DNA from: a virus
Length of the DNA stretch: 64,000 nucleotides
Direction: 5' to 3' (one strand)
Virus record (IMG/VR): IMGVR_UViG_3300017589_000061
Location: 1 to 64,000 of that record
In this document: positions 27,392-64,000 of the stretch, one piece after another
Numbering within the stretch: position 1 is the first letter of the stretch
Layout: the number at the start of each line of letters is the position of its first letter
The notes under the pieces: model-generated
What the model was told of the DNA's origin: nothing
What the model saw: only the letters and a program-made list of their open reading frames with translations
Database searches by the model: none
Translations under genes and position numbers: made by a program

Positions 27392-27600
27392 CAATGAATA
27401 GACCTGCAAAAAGCAAGCCTACCCATCAAATCCCGTTCCCATCCCAAAGAACGCTGTCAGCCCCATACAGAAGTGCCTAAGCACTTCCAAGGAGGAATTA
27501 TGAAAAAATTTATCGGTCTTTAGAAACTTCTGTATAGGGCTGAAGTTGTTAAGCAGAAAGCGATACCTTGCGAATACCGCAATCAGAGTCCTTTTCTACT
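27392..27600 (-). ncRNA. Multi-hairpin RNA exposing an anti-SD/anti-start-codon sequence
   Basis: 18-bp stem 27457-74/27526-43 (G-U pair only on the minus strand) around UUUCAUAAUUCCUCCUU, with flanking hairpins. Confidence 0.55.
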
Positions 27601-51963: not shown

Positions 51964-52255
51964 TAAAATTAGAATTTTAAAAGATTATATTAAAAGCATA
52001 CAGAGATATGCAAATATACTCTTTATAAATATATAAGAATGATTATATGTTTATAAAGCTTTTAAAATAAAAATAAAGGAGTAATAAAAATGAATGTAAA
52101 TAAAAATAGCATGATTGAATTATTGGAAAATGAACTGGAGGACTTTAAGAACTTGCAAGAAAAATATAAAAATGATATTGACGAATTCGCTTTTTATAAT
52201 GGATGTGTTAGCACTATAGAATATTTATTAATAAAAATAAAGGAGTAATAAAGCT

Positions 52256-52567
52256 ATGAATGAAAACTTATACAATCATAATCAAGTTATGGATGCTATT
52301 AACAAAATAAAAGATTTTAATGTTACTTGTACAAGAAAAATATATCATAAAACATTATGTTATGACTTTAAAAAAATAATTGAAAATGATTTAATGCCGA
52401 TTAATGACTGGTTATACAATGAGGATATGTTTGCATTTTATAACTATCATGAATTAGTTGAAAAATTATACGATATAACAACAAAAAAAGAAATGGACAC
52501 ATCACTAAATTATTTAAAAGTATCAATAATAAATGATTTATATAAAACATTAGAATTAGCAAGTTAA
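52256..52567 (+). CDS. Early hypothetical protein
   Basis: AAGGAG RBS. Confidence 0.6.
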   Translation: MNENLYNHNQVMDAINKIKDFNVTCTRKIYHKTLCYDFKKIIENDLMPINDWLYNEDMFAFYNYHELVEKLYDITTKKEMDTSLNYLKVSIINDLYKTLELAS

Positions 52568-53792: not shown

Positions 53793-54171
53793 ATAAAATT
53801 AGCATAGTTAATGCTATGCTACAAGCATATAAAAATATTTATGTGTTTGTAATTTAGCATAAATAAAAATATATTAAAAAGGAGTAACAATGGATAAAAA
53901 ATATAAAAATTACTATGAAAACATGATAAAAGAATACACAGAAAATAATAAAAACGGATGCAATAATGCAAAAATTGAATTTTATAAAAACAAATTAAAA
54001 GAATTAAAGGAAGGATCTGAAACAAATGATAAAAATATATAATAAAAATTGGAATATCAAAGTATTTGCTGAAAATGTATTCATATTGATATTTTGTATA
54101 ATGTTTATATATTGCTTTATTGGATATATAAAAATAATATCAACAAATATAAGATTATATTAAAAAAGTTA

Positions 54172-54200
54172 TTGCTAAAAATATAAAAATATGATATAAT
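54172..54200 (+). promoter_or_regulatory. SigmaA promoter
   Basis: TTGCTA-17-TATAAT with TG. Confidence 0.6.
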
Positions 54201-54582
54201 AAAAGAAAAAATAAAATTTGAGGAGGATTTAAAGATGTATAGTAAAGATCAAATAACCAAAACTTTAAGTTTTATACAAAATTATGCCAACAAAACGAAT
54301 CAGCAAGCAAAATTTAAACAAACAATAAATTTATTAAAAAAGGAGTTAGAAAAATGACATTAAGAGCCGTAAAAAAAGCATTAAAAAAACAAGATTACAA
54401 AAAGCATATATTAAATTATTGGAATGAATTTGATACAATTTATATCGAATTTGATGATGGACAGCAAATAAAATTAGACTTTGACTTAAATATAATTTAA
54501 TTATTTTGTATCGATTATTAATTTAATTATTTAATAATCGATATTAAGCAATTAAAATATAAAATAAAAGGAGCATATAATT

Positions 54583-54798
54583 ATGGATAGCAAAGAACAC
54601 ATAAAAAGATGTGAGGAATTATTAAAAGAAGCAGCAAGCAGAATAAATATGATAATTGAATTAAAAGAATACAAAGAAGGAAGAAAAGTTATAGGAATAG
54701 AAATATTATTAAAGAATGGAAAAGGTTTAATTTATAAAAATTATGACGATGTATCAGATATGTTGGGTTATATACATGGGTACGAATATAATTTATAA
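54583..54798 (+). CDS. Early hypothetical protein
   Basis: AAGGAG RBS. Confidence 0.6.
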   Translation: MDSKEHIKRCEELLKEAASRINMIIELKEYKEGRKVIGIEILLKNGKGLIYKNYDDVSDMLGYIHGYEYNL

Positions 54799-54951
54799 AT
54801 CATTCTTTTATATGTTATATATAATAGCTTTAAGGGCATTAAATAAGGTTTAAAGCATTGAAATTATCAAGATTGATGGCAAATAAAAATATAAAAATGT
54901 TTATAAGTTTGTAGAAAGCTTTTAAAAATAAAATAAAAAGGAAGTAGAAAA

Positions 54952-55218
54952 TTGAAAAATATAAAAAAGTGGTTAATAAATAATAATATTGAATTTGAAA
55001 TAGTTAATAATTATATTGTTATTTATAAAGAAAAAAATTGTTGTTGGATCAACGGATATAATGAAAAAATGTACTATGATAAAAAAATAAGCATATATCA
55101 AAATACATACAAAGAATATATAATAGGCGAAACAATAGGCTATAATTTAGGCGGTAAAATATATCAAAGTGGGAAACAAACAAATATAATTGAATTTTTA
55201 AATAAGAAATTAATATAA
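54952..55218 (+). CDS. Early hypothetical protein
   Basis: AGGAAG RBS with TTG start. Confidence 0.55.
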   Translation: MKNIKKWLINNNIEFEIVNNYIVIYKEKNCCWINGYNEKMYYDKKISIYQNTYKEYIIGETIGYNLGGKIYQSGKQTNIIEFLNKKLI

Positions 55219-55253
55219 AAATAATAAAAATATAAAATGGAGGTTTTAACACT

Positions 55254-55445
55254 ATGAAAAATTTATTAGCTAGTGCAGGAAACAAGGAAGATTTAGAAAA
55301 ATTAATAAATAAATTTTATTATTCAACTAATTACATAATAACAGAAGAAAACGAAATATATAATACAAAACTAAATAAAATAGCTGAAGGAACAAAAATA
55401 ATAGTTAAAAAAGGAAGATGGCGTTTTGAAATGATTGAAGAATAA
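55254..55445 (+). CDS. Early hypothetical protein
   Basis: GGAGG RBS; C-terminal KKGRWRFE. Confidence 0.6.
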   Translation: MKNLLASAGNKEDLEKLINKFYYSTNYIITEENEIYNTKLNKIAEGTKIIVKKGRWRFEMIEE

Positions 55446-55478
55446 AAGGTTAATTTTATAAAAATAGGAGGTCGCAAG

Positions 55479-56060
55479 ATGCTAAACAATGAACATATAG
55501 GAAAAATATTACTTGAATTATATAATTATGTAAAAGTTGAAAAAATAGGAATTGCAGGCGGAAAAGAATGGTATTTTATAAATGATAAATATCCCGAAGA
55601 AGTTACAAACGGACAATATCAACTTTGGGATCAAAACTGGATGGATAGAATTTTAAGTAAGCAAGAAGAATATAAAAATAAATTAGAATTACATAAAAAA
55701 GCATTAATTGAGGAAGAAAAAAGAGAAGCTGAAGAAGCAAGATATAAAGCAGAAAAAGAAGATTTATACGGCTTTGATGATGGAAAAAATCCAATGCAAA
55801 AAGGAAAAATATTAAAATGTTTAATGATTTATAACAATTATAGCATAGGTTTTATGACTAGAAAAGATTTTTTAATGATAAGATTAAAAAATGGTTTTAA
55901 ATTAGATTATAAACAGTTTACGAATTATAAAACAGATACAAAAAAATGGTGTTATGTATTAGGAAATGAAAATTGCTTTACTGAAATAACAAAAACAGAA
56001 TATGATTTTGCACAATATTTATTAAACAATAATTTAATTAAAGCCGAACAAATATCATAA
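55479..56060 (+). CDS. Early hypothetical protein
   Basis: AGGAGG RBS; EITKTEYDFAQYL motif. Confidence 0.65.
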   Translation: MLNNEHIGKILLELYNYVKVEKIGIAGGKEWYFINDKYPEEVTNGQYQLWDQNWMDRILSKQEEYKNKLELHKKALIEEEKREAEEARYKAEKEDLYGFDDGKNPMQKGKILKCLMIYNNYSIGFMTRKDFLMIRLKNGFKLDYKQFTNYKTDTKKWCYVLGNENCFTEITKTEYDFAQYLLNNNLIKAEQIS

Positions 56061-56178
56061 TAAAAATAAATTGATATTAAGCTGATACAGTGATATCAAA
56101 ATATCAATCTACAAGCCACAGAATGAGTTTTAAGCAAAGAAAATATAAAAACAATATAAAACTATGGAGGATGTAAAA

Positions 56179-56361
56179 ATGAATTATAAAAATGAATATG
56201 AAAAGAGTATGACAAAAATAATTGACGAATGCAAATATAAAACAAATAATATCCCAGTTGGTCAATGGGCATTATGGACAATTTATAGTAATTTAAATAA
56301 TGAAGATCAAAATAATTTTAATGGTCAATTTAATATAATATTAAATAATTTAACAGAATGA
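56179..56361 (+). CDS. Early hypothetical protein
   Basis: GGAGG RBS; start at MNYK. Confidence 0.55.
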   Translation: MNYKNEYEKSMTKIIDECKYKTNNIPVGQWALWTIYSNLNNEDQNNFNGQFNIILNNLTE

Positions 56362-56413
56362 TAAAATACAAAATTTATTTGATAGATTAAGTTAAAAAAA
56401 TAAATAAAATATG

Positions 56414-56442
56414 TTGACAAAGTAATAAAAATATGATAGTAT
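56414..56442 (+). promoter_or_regulatory. SigmaA promoter
   Basis: TTGACA-17-TAGTAT with TG. Confidence 0.65.
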
Positions 56443-56493
56443 GTAGATACTAAAAGAAATCAAATAAAAATATAAAAATAAGGAGAAATAAAA

Positions 56494-56895
56494 ATGACTA
56501 TGAATGAATTTGTAAAAAGAAATAATATTAGAATCAACGTTGAGTGGGCAGAAAGAAATCCAAGTATGGCTGATGATGCATGGAGTAGAACAGCTAATCA
56601 TTACAAAACTACATTAAAAAAAGATAATAAACAATTAACAGTATATTACAGCATGGGATCAGCATTAACTAACGAACCAACGGCTGAAGAAGTTTTAAAT
56701 AGTTTAGCACTTGACGGAAGTGTGTATTTAAATAATAACAGTTTTGAAGATTTTTGTTCAGAATTTGGATATGATGAGGACAGCAGAACAGCAGAAAAAA
56801 CATATAATACAATCATAAAACAAGCTAAAAAAACTGAAAAATTTTTAGGAGCGGAATTGTTTAATCAATTAACATATGATGTTGAGCAATTGTAA
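56494..56895 (+). CDS. Conserved phage early protein
   Basis: FEDFCSEFGYDEDSRTAEKTY motif. Confidence 0.7.
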   Translation: MTMNEFVKRNNIRINVEWAERNPSMADDAWSRTANHYKTTLKKDNKQLTVYYSMGSALTNEPTAEEVLNSLALDGSVYLNNNSFEDFCSEFGYDEDSRTAEKTYNTIIKQAKKTEKFLGAELFNQLTYDVEQL

Positions 56896-56902
56896 AAATA
56901 AA

Positions 56903-56966
56903 ATTTCCTTGATAAGTCTTTGAAAATTAAGACGAAATATCCCTTAATAAAAGGGGTATCGGAAAT
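56903..56966 (+). ncRNA. Type I hammerhead ribozyme (U3-A8 core variant)
   Basis: ATTTCC-TTGATAA-GTCTT/AAGAC-GAA-ATATCCCTT/AAGGGGTAT-C-GGAAAT; all three stems pair; AUC cleavage triplet ends at 56960. Confidence 0.85.
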
Positions 56967-56995
56967 AAAAATAAAATTATGGAGGATTTAAGAAT

Positions 56996-57295
56996 ATGAA
57001 AAAGACAATATCAAAATATGAGTTTATTGAAGAATTTAAAGAAATGAACAGAGAAAATAATTTTAGTTATGAAGGCAGAATAGCATTATTCGATTATTTA
57101 GAAAGATTAGAAGAAGATACAGGCGAAGAAATGGAATTAGATGTAATTGCTATATGTTGCGATTTTACAGAATATGAAAGCCTTGAAGAGTTTAATAATA
57201 CTTATGGTAAAGATTGTGAATCAATAGAAGATATAGAATATTATACAGCAGTCATTCCAGTTGACGATGAAAAATTTATAATACAAGATTTTTAA
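56996..57295 (+). CDS. Highly acidic conserved early protein (DNA-mimic candidate)
   Basis: FSYEGRIALFDYLE..E.D.GEEMELDVIAICCDF; D/E-rich. Confidence 0.7.
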   Translation: MKKTISKYEFIEEFKEMNRENNFSYEGRIALFDYLERLEEDTGEEMELDVIAICCDFTEYESLEEFNNTYGKDCESIEDIEYYTAVIPVDDEKFIIQDF

Positions 57296-57369
57296 ATAAA
57301 AACAATAATAAAAATATAGATTAAATTTTATACATGAGATATAAAAATCTATAACTAAAAGGTGATTAA

Positions 57370-57630
57370 ATGGAATTACAAAACATTATAAAAATAGCGG
57401 ATCAATATAATAATACCGATAAAGATATTATTAAAAATAATATAATCAATTATATCAATGAATCAGAATATAACAGGGACAGCCAAAAATTAGCTGATAA
57501 AATAGGGGTATCAATACAAACAGTATATTCATATAGAAAACAAGAACAGGGTAATATTCCCGACTTTGTGACAGCTTTAAAATTAGTAAATGAATTAAAT
57601 ATAAAAATAAATGATCTTATGGAGGATTAA
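57370..57630 (+). CDS. Cro/XRE HTH regulator
   Basis: QKLADKIGVSIQTVYSY....PDFVTALKL...LNIKINDL. Confidence 0.8.
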   Translation: MELQNIIKIADQYNNTDKDIIKNNIINYINESEYNRDSQKLADKIGVSIQTVYSYRKQEQGNIPDFVTALKLVNELNIKINDLMED

Positions 57631-57632
57631 AA

Positions 57633-57863
57633 ATGATAGCCATATTAAAAAAGGAATCAAGATATAAAAAATATGAAACGGTTGCATTAATAAAAGATGA
57701 TACAAATAATCAATTTATAGTTGCATATCATTTCAAAGAAGATGATAATTTCAAATCTTATGCAGACACACCAAATGATAATATATTTACATTTTTGGAT
57801 GACGAAACACAACTAGGGGCATTAAAACAAGCTATAAATAAATTTGAAACTATAAGAATATAA
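57633..57863 (+). CDS. Early hypothetical protein
   Basis: GGAGG RBS. Confidence 0.6.
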   Translation: MIAILKKESRYKKYETVALIKDDTNNQFIVAYHFKEDDNFKSYADTPNDNIFTFLDDETQLGALKQAINKFETIRI

Positions 57864-57931
57864 AAAAATGCATTAAAATTATACAGGGATATAAAATGCA
57901 TATTTTAATGGCTAAAATGTAAAAATAAGTG

Positions 57932-57960
57932 TTGAAATTTGAACGTTTTAAGAGTATAAT
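57932..57960 (+). promoter_or_regulatory. SigmaA promoter overlapped by an 18-bp palindrome
   Basis: TTGAAA-17-TATAAT. Confidence 0.65.
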
Positions 57961-57994
57961 AAAATTAAAAATATAAAAATAGGAGGATTTAAAA

Positions 57995-58270
57995 ATGACA
58001 AGATTTTATTTTGATGATGCAGATGATTACAAATTTGGCAACATGGGAAGATTAGAACACGAAGGAAAGATTTATGTATTAGAAGAAGGAGCAGATTTTA
58101 CAAGTAGACAAATAACAGAAAGATCACAGGATTACAATTTCTTTGAATTATCAGCACTTGCACACGATTTAAGTGGAAATAAATATAGTGTTTATTGGGT
58201 ATTCGAAGATGAAGGAAAAGAGTTAGACGAATATGACTACAGCGATATTGACAGAATAATAGAAATATAA
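57995..58270 (+). CDS. Small acidic early protein
   Basis: AGGAGG RBS; D/E-rich. Confidence 0.65.
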   Translation: MTRFYFDDADDYKFGNMGRLEHEGKIYVLEEGADFTSRQITERSQDYNFFELSALAHDLSGNKYSVYWVFEDEGKELDEYDYSDIDRIIEI

Positions 58271-58369
58271 AAATTAGAATAGCTTAAATGCTATTCTACC
58301 AGTAAATAAAAATAATTTGTCTATTGGTAAAATAGCATTTATAAAAATAAATTAAAAGGAGGAAATATT

Positions 58370-58552
58370 ATGTTTGCTATTATTAATAAAAATAAACAAT
58401 ATCTAACAAGAAGGGGAATTGATGCAGATTACACTTTTACAGACAATAATAATTTTGCTTATGTGTGGGGAACAATTAATGAAGCTGAAGCAGTAAGAAA
58501 TATATTGACAGATTATCAAGGAGTTAATGATCTTGAAATAGTAGCAATATAA
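58370..58552 (+). CDS. Early hypothetical protein
   Basis: AGGAGG RBS. Confidence 0.6.
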   Translation: MFAIINKNKQYLTRRGIDADYTFTDNNNFAYVWGTINEAEAVRNILTDYQGVNDLEIVAI

Positions 58553-58629
58553 CAACAGTACAGAGGTCATAGAATCGATTTTAAGCAACGAAATAAAAAT
58601 AATAATATGAATTTATGGAGGGTTTAAAA

Positions 58630-58908
58630 ATGTTAAATAGAAATGAAATAGGAATTATAGAATTAAGAGACAATAGTTATGTAATCAGAACTGAAAAGGG
58701 TGATTATAGGTTAGACATATACACTGATGGAGTAGTAGTTGAAAAGGGGTATTATGTAGACGCAAGCAGTCATGGCTACATATGGGAAACTAAAGGATAT
58801 TTATTTCATGAAGATGACAGAAAAATTAAAAGAAGAACTAAAAAAATAGCAAATGAAATAATTCAAGAAATAGTTACAATGTTATGTGAAAAAGAATTAT
58901 CTGCATAA
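58630..58908 (+). CDS. Early hypothetical protein
   Basis: GGAGGG RBS; start at MLNR. Confidence 0.6.
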   Translation: MLNRNEIGIIELRDNSYVIRTEKGDYRLDIYTDGVVVEKGYYVDASSHGYIWETKGYLFHEDDRKIKRRTKKIANEIIQEIVTMLCEKELSA

Positions 58909-59296
58909 CCAAATAAAAAGTAGATTTCATCATAATAAAAATAATTATAAATTATATTAAAAAAGAGTTGTATTTTTCAAGAAGTAGTATATAATAGAAT
59001 AAAGAAATTAAAATAAAAATAATAAGGAGAAATAAAATGGAAAAGGTTAAATGTGTAAATTGTGATTGGACAGGGACAAGTGATGAATTGGGGTGGGACA
59101 AAAAATTGAAAATTGAATTATGTCCTAAATGTTTTGGAAATGATGGGTTAGAGTTAATGAAATATGATAATAGAGATGCTGATTGTGAAAATTAGAAATA
59201 AATGAATAGCTTAATGCTATTCTATGAACTAATAAAAATAATTATTAGCTGATAGATTGGCATTAAATAAAAATAAAATAAAAAGGAGAAATAAAA

Positions 59297-59599
59297 ATGA
59301 AAAAAGGGTATGTATTATTAGTAGATGATGAGTGGGAATTTGCAGAATTAACAAAGAAAGATGTTGAAAGAATAAAAGATGATATCAATGGAGAATATGC
59401 TGAACAATATTTAATCAAACTTAATAATGGTGAAACAATTGATGTTGGAATAATTGACGATATAAAAGAAGCTGAAGAATATTATAAAAATAAAATGTAT
59501 GAAGCTATGCAAATTTTAAATGACATAGTATATGATGCTGAAAGAAATAGAATTGAGTGGAACGAAGCATTTAATCAAATGAAATGTGAATTTGTATAA
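59297..59599 (+). CDS. Acidic early protein
   Basis: AAGGAG RBS. Confidence 0.65.
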   Translation: MKKGYVLLVDDEWEFAELTKKDVERIKDDINGEYAEQYLIKLNNGETIDVGIIDDIKEAEEYYKNKMYEAMQILNDIVYDAERNRIEWNEAFNQMKCEFV

Positions 59600-59669
59600 A
59601 GTGACTTGTATCACTATAAATAGGTTGTTAGGTGCAAGGCGGTTGCTGTCTTAGGATGGCAACATCAAC
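59600..59669 (+). ncRNA. Pistol ribozyme 1
   Basis: P1 AGTGA/TCACT; loop CTTGTA pairs with TGCAAG; linker ATAAATAG; P2 GTTG/CAAC; TTAGG; GCG; P3 GTTGCTGTC/GATGGCAAC; A-U cleavage site at 59664/59665. Confidence 0.85.
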
Positions 59670-59695
59670 AAAATAAAAATAAAAGGAGAAGTAAA

Positions 59696-60337
59696 ATGAA
59701 AAAGAGTAAGTTAGATAACAAATTTAGGCATCATGCATGGTTTAAAGAAGGGGTAACGGTCAGATATGCATTAGATAATTTTGCTAAAACTTCAGATGTT
59801 TATTTGTCGCAGAAACCTAGCAAACATCAATCAATGAGATTATTTGATCCGATAAACTATGATGATATATTGACAGACGGAAGGTATTCTTATAGACCAA
59901 CAGAGGAAGAAAAAGAGTATTATTTAGAGAGAAAGGCTTACTGGAAAGAGCAAAAAGAAATTAAATATAATGAATGGCTAGATACTGAAATTGACGTTGA
60001 TAAAGAGTTAAGAATACATTTAGGAAATAATTCACATTATGATTTGAGAGGCAGTGAATACCAATTAAATATTTGGAGGAATTATAAGGTAACTGAAAAA
60101 ACTATAAAAGATTATAGTATAGATGAAAAAGAGAGAGCAAGATTAATTGAATCTTGGGAAAACAGAATTAAAATGACAAAAATTACAAGAGCAATAATTG
60201 ATGATTTAATTAGTAAATATAAACATGAAATAAAAACAAATAGAGATTTTGAAAATTTTAAACAGATTATAGACGAAGAATTATCAGAAGTGGTAGTATG
60301 GAATACCGAAACGGTAGACTGGGAACTAATAGCATAA
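59696..60337 (+). CDS. Early hypothetical protein
   Basis: 213 aa; AAGGAG RBS. Confidence 0.7.
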   Translation: MKKSKLDNKFRHHAWFKEGVTVRYALDNFAKTSDVYLSQKPSKHQSMRLFDPINYDDILTDGRYSYRPTEEEKEYYLERKAYWKEQKEIKYNEWLDTEIDVDKELRIHLGNNSHYDLRGSEYQLNIWRNYKVTEKTIKDYSIDEKERARLIESWENRIKMTKITRAIIDDLISKYKHEIKTNRDFENFKQIIDEELSEVVVWNTETVDWELIA

Positions 60338-60370
60338 TAAATATAAAAATAATAAAAGAGGTGTTTTAAT

Positions 60371-60622
60371 ATGGTAAAAATGTTAAAGTATAAAGATATA
60401 TTATTTGATGATTATTCAAAAGACGAATACGGAACATACTCAACAATATGTAAAAAGTGTCAAGAAAAATATAAAAATAATCTATCCAATAATGAAATTG
60501 ATAATGGAACAGGTGGAGGTGTTTGTGGAGTTAAGGGTTGTACAGAATCAGATTGGGAAACAGAAATTGATGTTGAATATATAGATTTTAAAGATGGTGA
60601 ATTTGAGATAGTAGAAATATAA
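60371..60622 (+). CDS. Cys-containing early protein
   Basis: ICKKC...VCGVKGC. Confidence 0.65.
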   Translation: MVKMLKYKDILFDDYSKDEYGTYSTICKKCQEKYKNNLSNNEIDNGTGGGVCGVKGCTESDWETEIDVEYIDFKDGEFEIVEI

Positions 60623-60789
60623 CAATAAAATTATAATAAAAGGGGAAGTAAAATGAATGATGAAGAAAGAAAAGAATTAGAAGAATTCAAAGAAATAGAA
60701 TGCGAATTCAAATGTGTTGGATGTAAAATGGCACAATTATGTTATGAAGAATCTAAAGAACAGGCAATAAAAGAAGGGTGGTATTAAAA

Positions 60790-60981
60790 ATGAAAGATAG
60801 TTATTTTGTAAAACAAGATTTATTAAAATATAAAAATGAATTAGAAATAAAAATAAAAAACTCCAAAGGTCAAGAATATTTTGAAGATTTTTATGGTGGT
60901 GAATTAAGAGGTATAAATATGGCAATAGATTTTATTGATGGATATTTATATTATAAAGATGATATGTTATTTAACAAATAA
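60790..60981 (+). CDS. Early hypothetical protein
   Basis: GGGTGG RBS; start at MKDS. Confidence 0.55.
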   Translation: MKDSYFVKQDLLKYKNELEIKIKNSKGQEYFEDFYGGELRGINMAIDFIDGYLYYKDDMLFNK

Positions 60982-61043
60982 AAATATAATAATAAAATTA
61001 AAAATAAAAAAGATGTGGTTTATGTGAGGGGTGGAATAGTAGT

Positions 61044-61265
61044 ATGGCAAAATTAAATAACGATTGGTGGAATACGTTTGGAGGTAGTTTTGAAACTGAA
61101 GAAGATGTGATTGAATTTATTTTTGAAAAATTAGATACAAAAAAATGGGAAGATAGCTATATTGATATGGGAGGATATGGTGAACCAAATGAAATGTTTA
61201 AGCAAACAGTTGAAGATAAAAAGAATTTATTGTATGAATTTATGATGAGTTTAGTGAATAAATAA
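61044..61265 (+). CDS. Early hypothetical protein
   Basis: GGGGTGG RBS. Confidence 0.6.
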   Translation: MAKLNNDWWNTFGGSFETEEDVIEFIFEKLDTKKWEDSYIDMGGYGEPNEMFKQTVEDKKNLLYEFMMSLVNK

Positions 61266-61288
61266 AATTATAAAAAGGAGGGTATAAG

Positions 61289-61471
61289 ATGGAAACTATA
61301 ATATGTATTAAAAACTATATAACAGATGGAGAAACTTTCACACAAGGAGAAAATTACGAAGTAATAGAAGATTGTGGCGATAATAGTGTATATGTATTTT
61401 CTAATGAAGGGAATGTAACTTGGTTAGATTTAGAATATGAAGAAATTGAAAAATATTTTATAATTAGATAA
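61289..61471 (+). CDS. Small SH3-like early protein
   Basis: ICIKNY...FTQGENYEV pattern. Confidence 0.55.
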   Translation: METIICIKNYITDGETFTQGENYEVIEDCGDNSVYVFSNEGNVTWLDLEYEEIEKYFIIR

Positions 61472-61486
61472 ATGGAGGATTTTAAT

Positions 61487-61693
61487 ATGAAAGATAATAA
61501 ATTTAAAAATGTTTCATCCGATAATTATAGTTTTTTATCAAAAAATAATACACATTGGTGTAACAAATATTGCAACAATGGAACAGCTTCATTAAAGGGT
61601 TTAAGACAATGTTATGATTGGAAGGATGCATATATTGTATTATGTAAAAATGTTTATATGACAATAACAAAAGAAATATTTGAAACATTATAA
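61487..61693 (+). CDS. Early hypothetical protein
   Basis: GGAGG RBS; start at MKDN. Confidence 0.55.
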   Translation: MKDNKFKNVSSDNYSFLSKNNTHWCNKYCNNGTASLKGLRQCYDWKDAYIVLCKNVYMTITKEIFETL

Positions 61694-61709
61694 AAAGGAG
61701 GATATGAAA

Positions 61710-61976
61710 ATGTTAAATAATATAAAAACAACACAGGAATATTTTAATTTGACAATAGATGAATTATTAGAAATAAAAAATAAATATGGTTATACGAGAG
61801 AAGAGTGTAAATTATTTGATGCCGGTGCAACAGTGACTTTTTTTGATGATGAAAAAGAATTTGCTCATGAAATGAAAAACGTAGGTGGTTTTCAGGAATA
61901 TATGGATATCCATAAATATGAAATAAAAGCTATATTAAAAACTATTAATGAACGTATAGCAGTAGTATTAATATAA
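61710..61976 (+). CDS. Early hypothetical protein
   Basis: AGGAGG RBS; start at MKM or MLN. Confidence 0.55.
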   Translation: MLNNIKTTQEYFNLTIDELLEIKNKYGYTREECKLFDAGATVTFFDDEKEFAHEMKNVGGFQEYMDIHKYEIKAILKTINERIAVVLI

Positions 61977-62154
61977 CAATAACAAAGTTACATTAAAAAT
62001 AAAAATGTTATAATATGGGAACGTCATGATAATTGTAATTAAATAATTAGTATAAAATCGTAAATTTATTATATAAAAATAAAGGGGATGTAATAAGATG
62101 GTAAATAAAATATCAGTTGGACAAAGAAGAAAATGGATTGATGAAGATATAGAA

Positions 62155-62228
62155 AGTGGCTTGTACCATTGCAACAAGTCCATTAAGTGCAAGGCGTTTG
62201 GCGGTAGTTAGCGACCGTCAAGGTTGGA
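62155..62228 (+). ncRNA. Pistol ribozyme 2
   Basis: P1 AGTGG/CCATT; loop CTTGTA pairs with TGCAAG; P2 TCCA/TGGA; TTAAG; GCGT; P3 TTGGCGGT/ACCGTCAA; G-GU with cleavage at 62223/62224. Confidence 0.88.
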
Positions 62229-62257
62229 AATATATAAAAATAAGGAGAAATAAAAAA

Positions 62258-62458
62258 ATGAGAGTAAAGTTTGGTAACAGAATAAGATTATGTGCAACAA
62301 TTACACATTCTGACGATAGCAAATTATTAATAATTACAACAATTAGTAATGAAGTATATACAGCAGATATGTTAACAATTAAAAATGCTGAAAATTACTT
62401 TGATAAATTACTTAAATCGGGATATTGTGATTTATCAGAATATGAATATAGTAATTAA
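62258..62458 (+). CDS. Early hypothetical protein
   Basis: AAGGAG RBS before MRVKFG. Confidence 0.6.
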   Translation: MRVKFGNRIRLCATITHSDDSKLLIITTISNEVYTADMLTIKNAENYFDKLLKSGYCDLSEYEYSN

Positions 62459-62520
62459 ATTATAAGTGTATAAAATGATTGTTTTAAACATATAAAAATA
62501 AAAATAGAAAAGGGGATAAA

Positions 62521-62829
62521 ATGAAAATAGGTCATACTTACATAGGAATACATGGGAATAAAAAGGGTTGGAAACATTATTTACTACCTAAAAATTATTA
62601 TGGTAGCAAATGGAAACATTCATATTTTCAATATTATATAAGATGGTTTAATATCTTTTGGTGTAAGCCTAGAAAATGTGAAAAGTGTGGAAATTATATG
62701 GTTGGTGATGGTCATCATATTTGGGATAAAGAAGGAAATAAAATTTTAATAACAGTATGCAGAGAATGTTACAACGAAAAGGGATGTAGTGGTTGGATAG
62801 ATTGGGCGTGGGTTCAGCAAACAAAATAA
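62521..62829 (+). CDS. Zn-ribbon early protein
   Basis: CEKC...CREC. Confidence 0.6.
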   Translation: MKIGHTYIGIHGNKKGWKHYLLPKNYYGSKWKHSYFQYYIRWFNIFWCKPRKCEKCGNYMVGDGHHIWDKEGNKILITVCRECYNEKGCSGWIDWAWVQQTK

Positions 62830-62923
62830 AAATAATTGAGGTGACAGTATGATACAAATAATATTAATTGGAATTGTGTGGTTGTTTTGTAAGTCATTAG
62901 GAATATAAAAAAAGGAGAATAAA

Positions 62924-63259
62924 ATGAGATCAAAGAGAAATCAAATATATAATTGTTGTAAATTCATTCATTACCTAGATATAGTTGATAGAAATTTTAC
63001 ATTAGATAATTATAAATGGTTAAATGATTTTAATAGCAATGAAATATTTAAAAGTTACAATATTGAATTAAGTAAAAATGAAAAAGAAATGTTAAAATCA
63101 AGATTAGAACAAATAAAAATAAATCATGCTGAAGAAGTAAGAATATATGACGAACAGATACATAAAAAAGCAATGAAGTCACTTGGAGAATTAAGTTATA
63201 TGCTCAGTTTAGTAAGTGGGAATAATCATTATAATGATTTAAAGGGGTTAATGCGATGA
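62924..63259 (+). CDS. Early hypothetical protein
   Basis: AAGGAG RBS. Confidence 0.6.
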   Translation: MRSKRNQIYNCCKFIHYLDIVDRNFTLDNYKWLNDFNSNEIFKSYNIELSKNEKEMLKSRLEQIKINHAEEVRIYDEQIHKKAMKSLGELSYMLSLVSGNNHYNDLKGLMR

Positions 63260-63492
63260 ATAGAGATATTTTAATAAAAAATATAACAATAATTGAAAAG
63301 TTTGCCGACTGGTTAAGAGAGAAAAGCATTTATGATGATTATGATTATTGTAATATTGATGACTTATTGGATGATGACGATGAAGAAGAGGAAGATGTAG
63401 CGGATAGATTATATAGAATAGTAAAAAATATGGAAAAAGAATTAGAAGTATGTAACAATAAATTATTAGAGAAATATAAAAATAAATTTTAG
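63256..63492 (+). CDS. Small protein with an acidic D/E tract
   Basis: DDLLDDDDEEEED; ATGA overlap with the upstream gene. Confidence 0.6.
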   Translation: MNRDILIKNITIIEKFADWLREKSIYDDYDYCNIDDLLDDDDEEEEDVADRLYRIVKNMEKELEVCNNKLLEKYKNKF

Positions 63493-63503
63493 GAGGATTT
63501 AAA

Positions 63504-63746
63504 ATGGATCAAGAAAATAAAATAAAAAATATTATCAATGAATTAAAATTAAAGTTTCAGGAAAATGTTTATATAGATAAAATAAATCAAATTTATTTTG
63601 TCGAACTGACTCTAAAAAATAAAATTATATTTGGTCAATATAATAATTATAATAAAGAGTTGTATAATGCTTTTAATGAATCGGCACTTACTTCTATTGA
63701 AGAATCAGACAATGATATAATATTAGGTTTTCAATTTTACATATAA
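63504..63746 (+). CDS. Early hypothetical protein
   Basis: AGGAGG RBS. Confidence 0.6.
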   Translation: MDQENKIKNIINELKLKFQENVYIDKINQIYFVELTLKNKIIFGQYNNYNKELYNAFNESALTSIEESDNDIILGFQFYI

Positions 63747-63812
63747 TCTGTTAGGATAATAAAACAGTTGTTTTAAGAATGTAAAAATAAAAATATAAAG
63801 GAGAATATAACA

Positions 63813-64000
63813 ATGAGTACAAGATCAGCGATAGGCATTAAAAATAGCGATGGTTTTATAACGGGAGTTTATTGCCATTATGATGGTTATTTAGACCACA
63901 ATGGAAGAATTTTAAAGGAACATTATGACAATAAAAACAAAGTTGAAGAATTACTATCTTATGGTGATATGTCAAGTTTAAGAGAAAATATTAATCCAAA
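63813..64000 (+). CDS. Conserved phage protein, truncated at the window edge
   Basis: MSTRSAIG...VYCHYDGY motif; AAGGAG RBS. Confidence 0.7.
   Translation, partial: MSTRSAIGIKNSDGFITGVYCHYDGYLDHNGRILKEHYDNKNKVEELLSYGDMSSLRENINP

What the first reader, a model, noticed from the sequence alone, without database searches (positions are those of the whole stretch)
62098..62228. Second pistol ribozyme overlapped by a 37-codon ORF
Seen: the same CTTGTA/TGCAAG pseudoknot as copy 1 but entirely different, compensating P2 and P3 stems, which is strong covariation within one genome. An ORF at 62098-62211 reads through P1, the pseudoknot and P3. Inference: translation may inhibit cleavage, or the ribozyme inserted into and truncated a gene.
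Basis: partly seen in the sequence, partly recalled or inferred. Interest (0 to 1): 0.7.

Follow-up and report, generated by a model that had tools for sequence, protein, structure and literature searches.

The report
Phage pistol ribozyme with chimeric ORF
A convincing self-cutting RNA (a pistol ribozyme) lies just ahead of a small phage gene, and the short reading frame that runs into it looks like the leftover head of another gene joined there by recombination, not a conserved control device.

Summary
Window 62155-62228 (+) has the full pistol-ribozyme architecture. Rfam RF02679 scores it 33.0 bits, 1.5 below the curated cut-off (E 2.4e-4 in a 501-nt scan). Stems, the 6-bp pseudoknot, the core nucleotides and the 2-nt G|U junction (62223|62224) are in place. 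Only the A-rich linker deviates (AAC for AAA). Copy 1 (59600-59669) shares the pseudoknot; P2 is fully compensated (4 of 4 pairs) but P3 only partly.

The 37-codon ORF (62098-62211) exists. Its first 19 codons look like a real gene head: a Shine-Dalgarno site as strong as its neighbours' and gene-like codon usage. Its last 18 codons are simply the ribozyme. The nearest relative (L005) has the same ribozyme letter for letter from 62156 on, and the same downstream genes, but an unrelated leader with no such ORF. Homology starts exactly at the ribozyme's 5' edge. So the ORF is a strain-specific chimera at a recombination junction, and translation-cleavage coupling is not conserved.

Cleavage is untested; no RNA data were available. 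This scan has noted pistol ribozymes between phage early genes many times on other DNA. Verdict: an ordinary new member with a curious but probably incidental ORF.

The parts
61987..62014 (+). Promoter-like site: GTTACA, 16-nt spacer, TG-extended TATAAT
   Evidence: 10 of 12 matches, TG before the second hexamer. Promoter-like sites as a class are not enriched here (43 found against 34.1 expected). However, 61977-62012 is 92% identical over 36 nt to L005 184-218, while the sequence on both sides of it differs.
62015..62154 (+). Strain-specific leader, with no counterpart in the closest relative L005
   Evidence: blastn of 61977-62155 against L005 matches only leader positions 1-36. L005 has about 79 unrelated bases here.
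62081..62088 (+). Shine-Dalgarno-like AAAGGGGA, 9 nt before the ATG of the 37-codon ORF
   Evidence: Duplex energy with a generic anti-SD motif is -8.2 kcal/mol. The 26 neighbouring starts average -7.9. Only 7.7% of 444 other AUGs score as well. 62064-62096 is 88% identical to 52223-52251, the initiation region of the 103-aa gene 52256-52567.
62098..62211 (+). 37-codon ORF. Codons 1-19 (62098-62154) form a gene-like head; codons 20-37 and the TAG are ribozyme sequence
   Evidence: Codon log-odds are +0.69 per codon for codons 2-19 and -3.4 in total for the ribozyme part. None of 355 wrong-frame stop-free windows and 0.9% of 3000 stop-free shuffles reach the head's score. No homologue was found.
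62155..62228 (+). Pistol-type self-cleaving ribozyme. P1 62155-62159/62166-62170. Pseudoknot 62160-62165 with 62188-62193. Linker 62171-62178. P2 62179-62182/62225-62228. Core UUAAG 62183-62187 and GCG 62194-62196. P3 62197-62204/62215-62222.
   Evidence: Rfam RF02679: 33.0 bits, E 2.4e-4, model 1-68. The sequence is identical in L005 from 62156 on.
62223..62224 (+). Predicted scissile bond G|U, the 2-nt junction between P3 and P2
   Evidence: Position of the ',' junction in the Rfam alignment. Harris 2015 states that cleavage occurs in this GU junction and that its length is strictly conserved. Not tested experimentally.
62155..62184 (+). Competing hairpin (62155-62164 with 62174-62184, one bulge). 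It sequesters the 5' strand of P1, five of the six pseudoknot-loop bases (62160-62164), part of the linker, three of the four bases of the 5' strand of P2 (62180-62182) and the first two core U's (62183-62184)
   Evidence: It is in the MFE of the 74-mer and of 62021-62262. Its energy is -8.6 kcal/mol against -3.3 for P1 alone; 4.7% of 2000 random linker/P2 variants do as well. Significance is marginal.
62242..62458 (+). AAGGAG (62242-62247) and the downstream 66-aa gene (ATG 62258), an orphan conserved in 5 other proteins
   Evidence: Its start is fixed by the homologues' shared N-terminus MRVKF, and by a 2-nt indel at 62230-62231 in L005 that breaks the longer GTG-62156 frame.
59600..59669 (+). 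Copy 1: a pistol-type element with the same pseudoknot, an AUAAAUA linker and A|U (59664|59665) at the junction. It starts 1 nt after the TAA of 59297-59599.
   Evidence: It is not found by Rfam at E <= 10. A relative that also has A|U lies in a MAG contig titled Clostridium sp. (L011; 80.2 bits with my model R1; 18.8 bits with Rfam).

Best explanation
62155-62228 is a pistol-type self-cleaving ribozyme in the early region of a 137-kb phage. It heads a conserved block made of the ribozyme, a 66-aa gene and a 102-aa gene. It lies downstream of a promoter-like site and a roughly 135-nt leader.

Once folded, it should cut between G62223 and U62224. That detaches the leader and the ribozyme itself (about 200 nt, ending in a 2',3'-cyclic phosphate) from an mRNA that starts with a 5'-OH. 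The cut is 34 nt before the ATG and 18 nt before the AAGGAG. Copy 1 would cut at a similar distance, 31 nt before its gene's ATG. The likely role is mRNA processing: it uncouples the downstream genes from whatever lies upstream and gives them a defined 5' end. The effect on stability is unknown.

The 37-codon ORF is a strain-specific chimera. A genuine-looking gene head (Shine-Dalgarno site, ATG and 19 codons) abuts the ribozyme at a recombination breakpoint, and the frame stays open by accident for 18 more codons, up to a TAG in the P3 loop. It is probably translated, so ribosomes probably disturb ribozyme folding in this phage. But this is a by-product and not a conserved regulatory design.

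Shown: the architecture, the core nucleotides, the breakpoint, the absence of the ORF in the relative, and the gene-like head. Inferred: cleavage, the transcription start, translation of the ORF, and the function.
For: Ribozyme:
- Rfam Pistol aligns full length at 33.0 bits, E 2.4e-4.
- 98.5% of 68 pair cells are standard pairs, and 7 of 23 pairs are changed on both sides between the copies. Versions with the 3' partner slid by 1-3 columns give 34-56% paired and 0-1 such pairs.
- The core UUAAG, pseudoknot strand and GCG correspond to the A32, G33, G40, C41 and G42 positions described for env25 (passages read in PMC6101554).
- The 2-nt junction is as in Harris 2015 (section read).
- The strict core motif occurs at only 3 places in both strands of the 137-kb genome, two of which are the two copies.

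Context:
- Canonical pistols (65.4 and 59.8 bits) lie in the same MAG that holds the copy-1 relative. They sit in the same stop-codon/promoter to RBS position.

ORF as a chimera:
- L005 (66-aa protein 95% identical) has the same ribozyme. blastn homology to the window runs 62156-62910 at 91% and stops at the ribozyme's 5' edge.
- L005's leader is unrelated apart from the promoter piece.
- L005 has no ORF of 20 aa or more in the entering frame.
- Three more distant homologues of the 66-aa gene have no ribozyme upstream.

A second breakpoint case:
- In L011 the copy-1 ribozyme is a 96.5%-identical, 86-nt island (59597-59682) between unrelated genes.
Against: - The score is below Rfam's curated cut-off.
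- The linker reads GCAACAAG, so the third of the three adenines called highly conserved (A19-A21, PMC6101554) is a C.
- A competing hairpin is predicted to be more stable than P1.
- Identity of the ribozyme between the window and L005 does not show selection. The local divergence is only 8 differences in 333 nt, and a 145-nt identical run also exists. By my own arithmetic, the chance of no change in 74 nt is about 0.17.
- The covariation rests on two independent sequences only.
- No homologue of the ORF head was found, so 'gene remnant' rests on codon usage and the initiation region of a 19-codon stretch. Composition explains part of that score: the stop-free shuffle mean is +0.32.
- The promoter is a consensus match only.
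Confidence: 0.65

Rival explanations
1. Translation-gated ribozyme. The leader ORF is a functional sensor. Ribosomes reading 62098-62211 keep P1, the pseudoknot and P2/P3 unfolded, so cleavage, and with it the fate of the downstream mRNA, is set by how heavily the leader is translated. The competing hairpin would act as a second state of the switch.
For: The SD is as strong as those of real genes. The stop codon lies in the P3 loop, 12 nt before the scissile bond, so a terminating ribosome would cover the cleavage site (inference from ribosome footprint size; recalled knowledge). An alternative hairpin (-8.6 against -3.3 kcal/mol) uses the unusual linker.
Against: The only close relative with the identical ribozyme lacks the ORF and has an unrelated leader. 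The ribozyme-encoded half of the ORF has non-coding codon usage (-3.4). Alternative hairpins as stable arise in 4.7% of random linker/P2 variants. No RNA or ribosome data are available.
Confidence: 0.1
2. Decaying or inactive pistol relic. The element keeps the shape but no longer cuts at a useful rate.
For: The score is below Rfam's gathering score. A C replaces the third adenine of the conserved A-minor triplet. The competing hairpin is predicted in the MFE. The identity with L005 is explained by low local divergence.
Against: All core positions of the P2/P3 internal loop, the GCG, the G|U junction and a perfect 6-bp pseudoknot are intact. All four helices pair fully. Position and spacing relative to the RBS match copy 1 and canonical pistols. 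Two further adenines follow the C in the linker.
Confidence: 0.12
3. The ORF is pure chance in a non-coding leader and is not translated. There is no gene remnant.
For: It is short. There are no homologues in 1.84 billion representatives, in Pfam or PHROGs or in phage records (best E 3). The A/purine-rich composition alone gives positive codon scores (shuffle mean +0.32). The sequence is absent from the representative library, which suggests that no gene caller predicted it (inference).
Against: The head's codon score exceeds all 355 wrong-frame stop-free windows and 99.1% of stop-free shuffles. The SD is matched by only 7.7% of other AUGs. The upstream 33 nt closely resemble a real gene's initiation region.
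Confidence: 0.12

Closest known systems
Pistol self-cleaving ribozyme class (Rfam RF02679; Weinberg 2015, not held here; Harris 2015, PMC4604425, sections 5-6 read)
   Same: The order P1, linker, P2, internal loop, P3, 2-nt junction, P2'. A 6-bp pseudoknot between the P1 loop and the internal loop. The core UUA-R-G ... GCG. A G|U junction. Location next to phage genes, as Harris 2015 describes.
   Different: It scores 1.5 bits under the curated cut-off. The linker is GCAACAAG where the consensus has AUAAAuA. A short ORF with its own SD runs into it. Activity is not tested.
Canonical pistols L013 and L014 (65.4 and 59.8 bits) in the MAG contigs titled Clostridium sp.
   Same: The AT-rich phage-like setting. 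The ribozyme lies just after a stop codon or a promoter-like site. Counting on the sequences printed, the predicted cut lies about 30-40 nt before the next ATG.
   Different: They have the consensus linker AUAAAAA, different pseudoknot sequences and no ORF entering the ribozyme.
Copy 1 of the same phage (59600-59669) and its relative in L011
   Same: The same pseudoknot hexamers, the same core and the same spacing to the RBS. Both are conserved islands or edges at mosaic breakpoints.
   Different: A|U at the junction. Harris 2015 says the GU 'varies somewhat'. The linker is the consensus one. Rfam scores this type at only 18.8 bits.
Pseudoknot (RAGATH-1-type) hammerhead, which has the same secondary structure as pistol (PMC11300833, passages read)
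   Same: The same helix connectivity, a 6-bp pseudoknot and an A-minor linker.
   Different: The loop between P2 and the pseudoknot here is the pistol UUAAG, not the hammerhead core. Pistol was the only ribozyme family matched at 62155-62228 with E <= 10 in the 501-nt scan.
Hammerhead and twister ribozymes proposed to process polycistronic bacterial and phage mRNAs (review PMC6765202, passages read)
   Same: An intergenic or 5'-leader position, and the proposed role of cutting transcripts into pieces with different stability or translation.
   Different: A different ribozyme class. That role is a proposal in the literature too.

Membership tests
Pistol ribozyme (RF02679) | Three stems P1, P2 and P3 in the canonical order | tested here: met
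   Full-length alignment to the model. P1 has 5 bp, P2 4 bp and P3 8 bp, all standard pairs in copy 2.
Pistol ribozyme (RF02679) | Pseudoknot between the P1 loop and the junction on the 5' side of P2/P3 | tested here: met
   CUUGUA (62160-62165) pairs with UGCAAG (62188-62193): 6 of 6 pairs, one of them G-U. It is invariant between the copies, so there is no covariation support for this helix.
Pistol ribozyme (RF02679) | Junction of exactly 2 nt between P3 and P2 that holds the scissile bond (usually GU) | tested here: met
   G62223 and U62224. Harris 2015 states that the junction length is strictly conserved and that GU is modestly conserved.
Pistol ribozyme (RF02679) | Conserved core nucleotides of the internal loop (equivalents of A32, G33, G40, C41, G42) | tested here: met
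   UUAAG at 62183-62187 and GCG at 62194-62196 match the consensus letters in the Rfam alignment. Their roles are described in PMC6101554.
Pistol ribozyme (RF02679) | Three consecutive adenines in the P1-P2 linker that make A-minor contacts with P1 | tested here: inconclusive
   Copy 2 reads GCAACAAG: two adenines, a C, then two more adenines. Whether a shifted register supplies the third contact cannot be told from sequence. Copy 1 has AUAAAUA.
Pistol ribozyme (RF02679) | Score at or above Rfam's curated gathering cut-off (an annotation threshold, not a structural feature) | tested here: not met
   33.0 against 34.5 bits. No match in the gathering scan.
Pistol ribozyme (RF02679) | Mg2+-dependent self-cleavage giving 2',3'-cyclic phosphate and 5'-OH ends | not testable with these tools
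   No RNA run holds the stretch. Only DNA contigs could be laid.
Pseudoknot (RAGATH-1) hammerhead (RF03152) | Hammerhead catalytic core between helix I and the pseudoknot | tested here: not met
   No RF03152 match at E <= 10 in 61900-62400. The loop is UUAAG.
Leader-peptide-controlled RNA switch (attenuator-like) | A leader ORF that overlaps the regulatory structure and is conserved among relatives | tested here: not met
   The one close relative with the same ribozyme (L005) has no ORF of 20 aa or more in that frame and an unrelated leader. Only one relative was available.

The most novel reading that the evidence does not exclude
The ORF is not an accident but a translation gate. A leader peptide gene with a full-strength ribosome-binding site ends inside stem-loop P3, 12 nt before the scissile bond. 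The ribozyme has a second, competing fold built from its unusual linker. Ribosome traffic would then decide whether the ribozyme folds and cuts, coupling processing of the downstream early genes to the translational state of the infected cell. That would be a natural translation-controlled self-cleaving ribozyme.
Probability: 0.1. Interest if true: 0.6.

Novelty: new member of a known kind. Interest (0 to 1): 0.3.

Why it matters
It adds one more probable pistol ribozyme in a phage early region, of a subtype that standard Rfam annotation misses. Copy 2 falls just under the cut-off and the copy-1 type falls far under it.

Two points go slightly beyond that. First, in both available comparisons the edge of sequence homology between related phages coincides with a ribozyme (62156; the 59597-59682 island). 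The ribozymes therefore mark, and may help to create, the joints of the shuffled early-gene cassettes. Second, this copy is a natural case in which a probably translated frame runs through most of a self-cleaving ribozyme. It could serve as a ready-made test object for how ribosomes and ribozyme folding compete, even if the overlap is accidental.

Tried and rejected
- RNA evidence: no RNA holder was listed for 54001-64000. The four DNA runs with small shares, laid as contigs, gave nothing usable at 62017-62350.
- Relatives by DNA: blastn of 61000-64000 against phage records found no match. The pseudoknot-plus-core pattern found nothing in viral contigs. It found 3 places in genome contigs, of which only L011 is a ribozyme. 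L009 and L010 have no P1 and I take them as chance matches.
L007 may be P0006's contig (same 1,112-base length and 56% identity).
- ORF homologues: phmmer found 0 hits. Pfam and PHROGs found 0. tblastn against phages gave a best E of 3. Nothing turned up in the phage's own genome or in L005-L008 outside the ribozyme-coded part. The back-translated pattern of residues 2-13 found 0.
- The back-translated pattern of residues 12-19 gave one viral hit (L012). It is an 8-residue identity inside an Sf6-type small terminase. About 0.1 hits are expected by chance by my own rough arithmetic, the flanks do not align, and the phage itself has no Sf6-type terminase match. I treat it as a weak lead only.
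- Selection on the ribozyme from the L005 comparison: rejected, because local divergence is too low.
- A third copy: my model R1 finds only the two copies in the 137-kb genome. The weak hit at L003 263-319 lies, by my reading, in a Cys-rich coding stretch.
- How common linker variants are: the family-level genome sample had 1 of 149 scored genomes over the cut-off, too few to say.
- Papers PMC4990474, PMC5293083 and PMC4509812 are not held. The identity of the '10 highly conserved nucleotides' is therefore taken only from passages of PMC6101554 and from the Rfam consensus. Supplements were not asked for.

Full report
Setting. The window is the first 64 kb of a 137,366-bp IMG/VR virus record with direct terminal repeats. 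The region 55-64 kb is a run of small plus-strand ORFs with AT-rich spacers. None of the five neighbouring proteins that I scanned matches PHROGs. Only one has a weak, sub-threshold Pfam hit. A MAG contig titled Clostridium sp. (L011) carries a close relative of copy 1 and patches of the neighbouring genes. That is a weak pointer to a Clostridium-like host.

Is the ribozyme there? Rfam's Pistol model aligns over its whole length to 62155-62228 (+) at 33.0 bits, with E 2.4e-4 in a 501-nt scan. The curated cut-off is 34.5 bits. Accordingly the gathering scan of the window found nothing. The match was also lost in the whole-window E-value scan and in the own-genome search (0 matches, 35 candidates scored).

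Read on the sequence, the parts are:
- P1: 62155-62159 with 62166-62170.
- Pseudoknot: CUUGUA at 62160-62165 with UGCAAG at 62188-62193.
- P2: 62179-62182 with 62225-62228.
- P3: 62197-62204 with 62215-62222.
- Core: UUAAG and GCG flanking the pseudoknot strand.
- Junction: two nucleotides, G62223 and U62224.

Harris 2015 (sections 5 and 6 read) says cleavage occurs in this GU junction. It says the junction's length is strictly conserved while its letters vary somewhat. It also says pistols are frequent near phage genes in Firmicutes. Passages of PMC6101554 name G40, the G33-C41 pair, A32 and G42 as the active-site network; all their equivalents are present here. The same passages call the linker's A19-A20-A21 highly conserved. 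Copy 2 has AAC there, followed by AA. That is its one clear departure and part of the reason for the low score.

More than chance? The hexamer pair occurs twice in the window against 0.16 expected. The strict core motif occurs at three places in both strands of the whole genome, two of which are the copies. I aligned copy 2, copy 1 and L005, and 98.5% of the 68 pair cells are standard pairs. Seven of 23 pairs are changed on both sides: P2 in 4 of 4, P1 in 1 of 5, P3 in 2 of 8. Versions with the 3' partner slid by 1-3 columns give 34-56% paired. The pseudoknot never varies, so it has no covariation support. There are only two independent sequences.

A covariance model built from these rows finds only the two copies in the 137 kb (circular for the two copies themselves). 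Copy 1 is invisible to Rfam. Its relative in the MAG scores 18.8 bits, while two canonical pistols in the same MAG score 65.4 and 59.8.

The ORF. The ORF 62098-62211 is real as an open frame. Its head behaves like a gene start.
- The AAAGGGGA nine bases upstream pairs with a generic anti-SD motif at -8.2 kcal/mol. The 26 neighbouring starts average -7.9. Only 7.7% of 444 other AUGs score as well.
- The 33 nt before the ATG are 88% identical to the initiation region of the 103-aa gene at 52256.
- Codons 2-19 score +0.69 log-odds per codon on a table trained on 75 long ORFs of the phage. Neighbouring genes score +0.43 +/- 0.21 over the same codons. None of 355 ATG-started, stop-free wrong-frame windows reaches that score, and only 0.9% of 3000 stop-free shuffles do.
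- The ribozyme-encoded codons 20-37 score -3.4 in total.
- No homologue of the peptide was found by any route. An 8-residue identity to an Sf6-type small terminase is about what chance allows.

The decisive comparison. The 66-aa downstream protein has five homologues. Four loci with relatives of that protein were recovered.

L005 (95% identical protein) carries the ribozyme, identical from 62156 on. Its blastn homology to the window runs from 62156 to 62910 (91%) and ends at the first stem of the ribozyme. Further upstream, only 36 nt around the promoter-like site are shared, at 92%. The leaders between them are unrelated: about 140 nt in the window and about 79 nt in L005. L005 has no ORF of 20 aa or more in the frame that enters the ribozyme. 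By my reading, that frame is open from L005 position 228 but has no ATG, GTG or TTG before the ribozyme.

The three more distant homologues have no ribozyme before the gene. A 2-nt indel just after the ribozyme in L005 also breaks the long GTG-62156 frame that would otherwise fuse the ribozyme to the 66-aa gene. So that frame is not coding either.

The ribozyme's identity between the two phages does not prove selection. The adjoining 333 nt differ at only 8 places.

A second case points the same way. In L011 the copy-1 ribozyme is a 96.5%-identical, 86-nt island (59597-59682) between genes with no similarity to the window's.

Mechanism. What follows is inferred.
- Transcripts from the promoter-like site, and any read-through from upstream, fold the ribozyme and are cut at 62223|62224.
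- The 5' piece keeps the leader, the whole ORF with its stop codon, and the ribozyme.
- The 3' piece begins with a 5'-OH, 34 nt before the ATG of the 66-aa gene.
- Copy 1 would cut 31 nt before its gene. Counting on the sequences, the canonical pistols L013 and L014 would cut roughly 30-40 nt before theirs. One of these sits right behind a TTGACA promoter-like site.
- This fits the proposal in the literature that bacterial and phage ribozymes process transcripts into pieces of different stability or translatability (review PMC6765202, passages read).
- I cannot say which way stability goes. From memory, the 5'-OH product of the glmS ribozyme is degraded by RNase J1 in Bacillus.
- Ribosomes starting at 62098 would unwind everything up to the P3 loop. 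While terminating, they would cover the scissile bond. Some interference with folding is therefore likely in this phage. Its absence from L005 argues that it is a side effect of a recombination event.

An extra observation. The nested MFE of copy 2 prefers a 10-bp hairpin, 62155-62164 with 62174-62184. It is built from the unusual linker (ACAAG) and a second CCAUU. It excludes P1, the pseudoknot and P2, at -8.6 against -3.3 kcal/mol. Random linker/P2 variants do as well in 4.7% of 2000 trials, so I treat it as a possible slowing or switching fold, not as a finding.

Novelty. Pistol ribozymes beside phage genes are described (Harris 2015). This scan has many earlier notes on them in other genomes: 451 findings hold the words 'pistol ribozyme phage'. 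I found no paper on a pistol overlapped by an ORF in one full-text search for 'pistol ribozyme', 'open reading frame' and 'bacteriophage'. It returned 8 papers; I read only their listing, plus passages of one. Since the overlap is not conserved, I rate this as a new member of a known kind, with modest interest.

Noticed in passing
window 56880-56965 (+): Weak match to the pseudoknot (RAGATH-1) hammerhead: 25.8 bits against a cut-off of 56.3, E 0.02 in a 251-nt scan. It lies between the stop at 56895 and the ATG at 56996. The core reads UUGAUAAG where the consensus has CUGAUGAG, and the first helix pairs poorly. With the two pistols it would make three pseudoknot-type ribozyme candidates spaced about 2.6 kb apart.
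   Followed up: partly
window 59600-59669 (+); L011 1042-1111 (-): Copy 1 and its relative in a MAG contig titled Clostridium sp. both have A|U at the scissile junction. They score 82 and 80 bits with my model, but the L011 relative scores only 18.8 bits with Rfam and copy 1 gets no Rfam match at E <= 10. This pistol subtype is missed by standard annotation.
   Followed up: partly
L011 (reverse-complemented) against window 57509-60703 and genome 65835-65875: The 3.7-kb MAG contig is a mosaic of short islands homologous to the window: 57509-57630, 57891-57981, 58265-58543, 59597-59682, 60609-60703 and 65835-65875. Unrelated DNA lies between them.
   Followed up: partly
window 62156-62458 (+): An annotation trap. 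A GTG at 62156 opens a 100-aa frame that fuses the ribozyme in frame to the 66-aa gene. In L005 a 2-nt indel at 62230-62231 breaks it, and all homologues start at MRVKF.
   Followed up: yes
L004 11834-13677 (-), i.e. genome about 135.4-137.3 kb: Group II intron domains: RF02001 at 159 bits, RF01998 at 75.6 bits and RF00029 at 47.8 bits, near the right end of the phage genome.
   Followed up: no
L013 1501-1573 (-) and upstream: A canonical pistol (65.4 bits) sits about 45 nt after a TTGACA promoter-like hexamer and before an RBS and gene. It is a second example of the promoter-then-pistol layout.
   Followed up: no
window 27452-27600 (+): The third genomic occurrence of the pistol core motif (27549) lies beside a long perfect stem that produced a spurious miRNA-family match. 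It has no pistol helices around it.
   Followed up: no
L012 6792-7217 (-): An Sf6-type small terminase (PF20901, 97.2 bits; phrog_1482) in an unrelated viral contig shares 8 residues, and about 25 identical bases, with the ORF head. The match is probably chance.
   Followed up: yes
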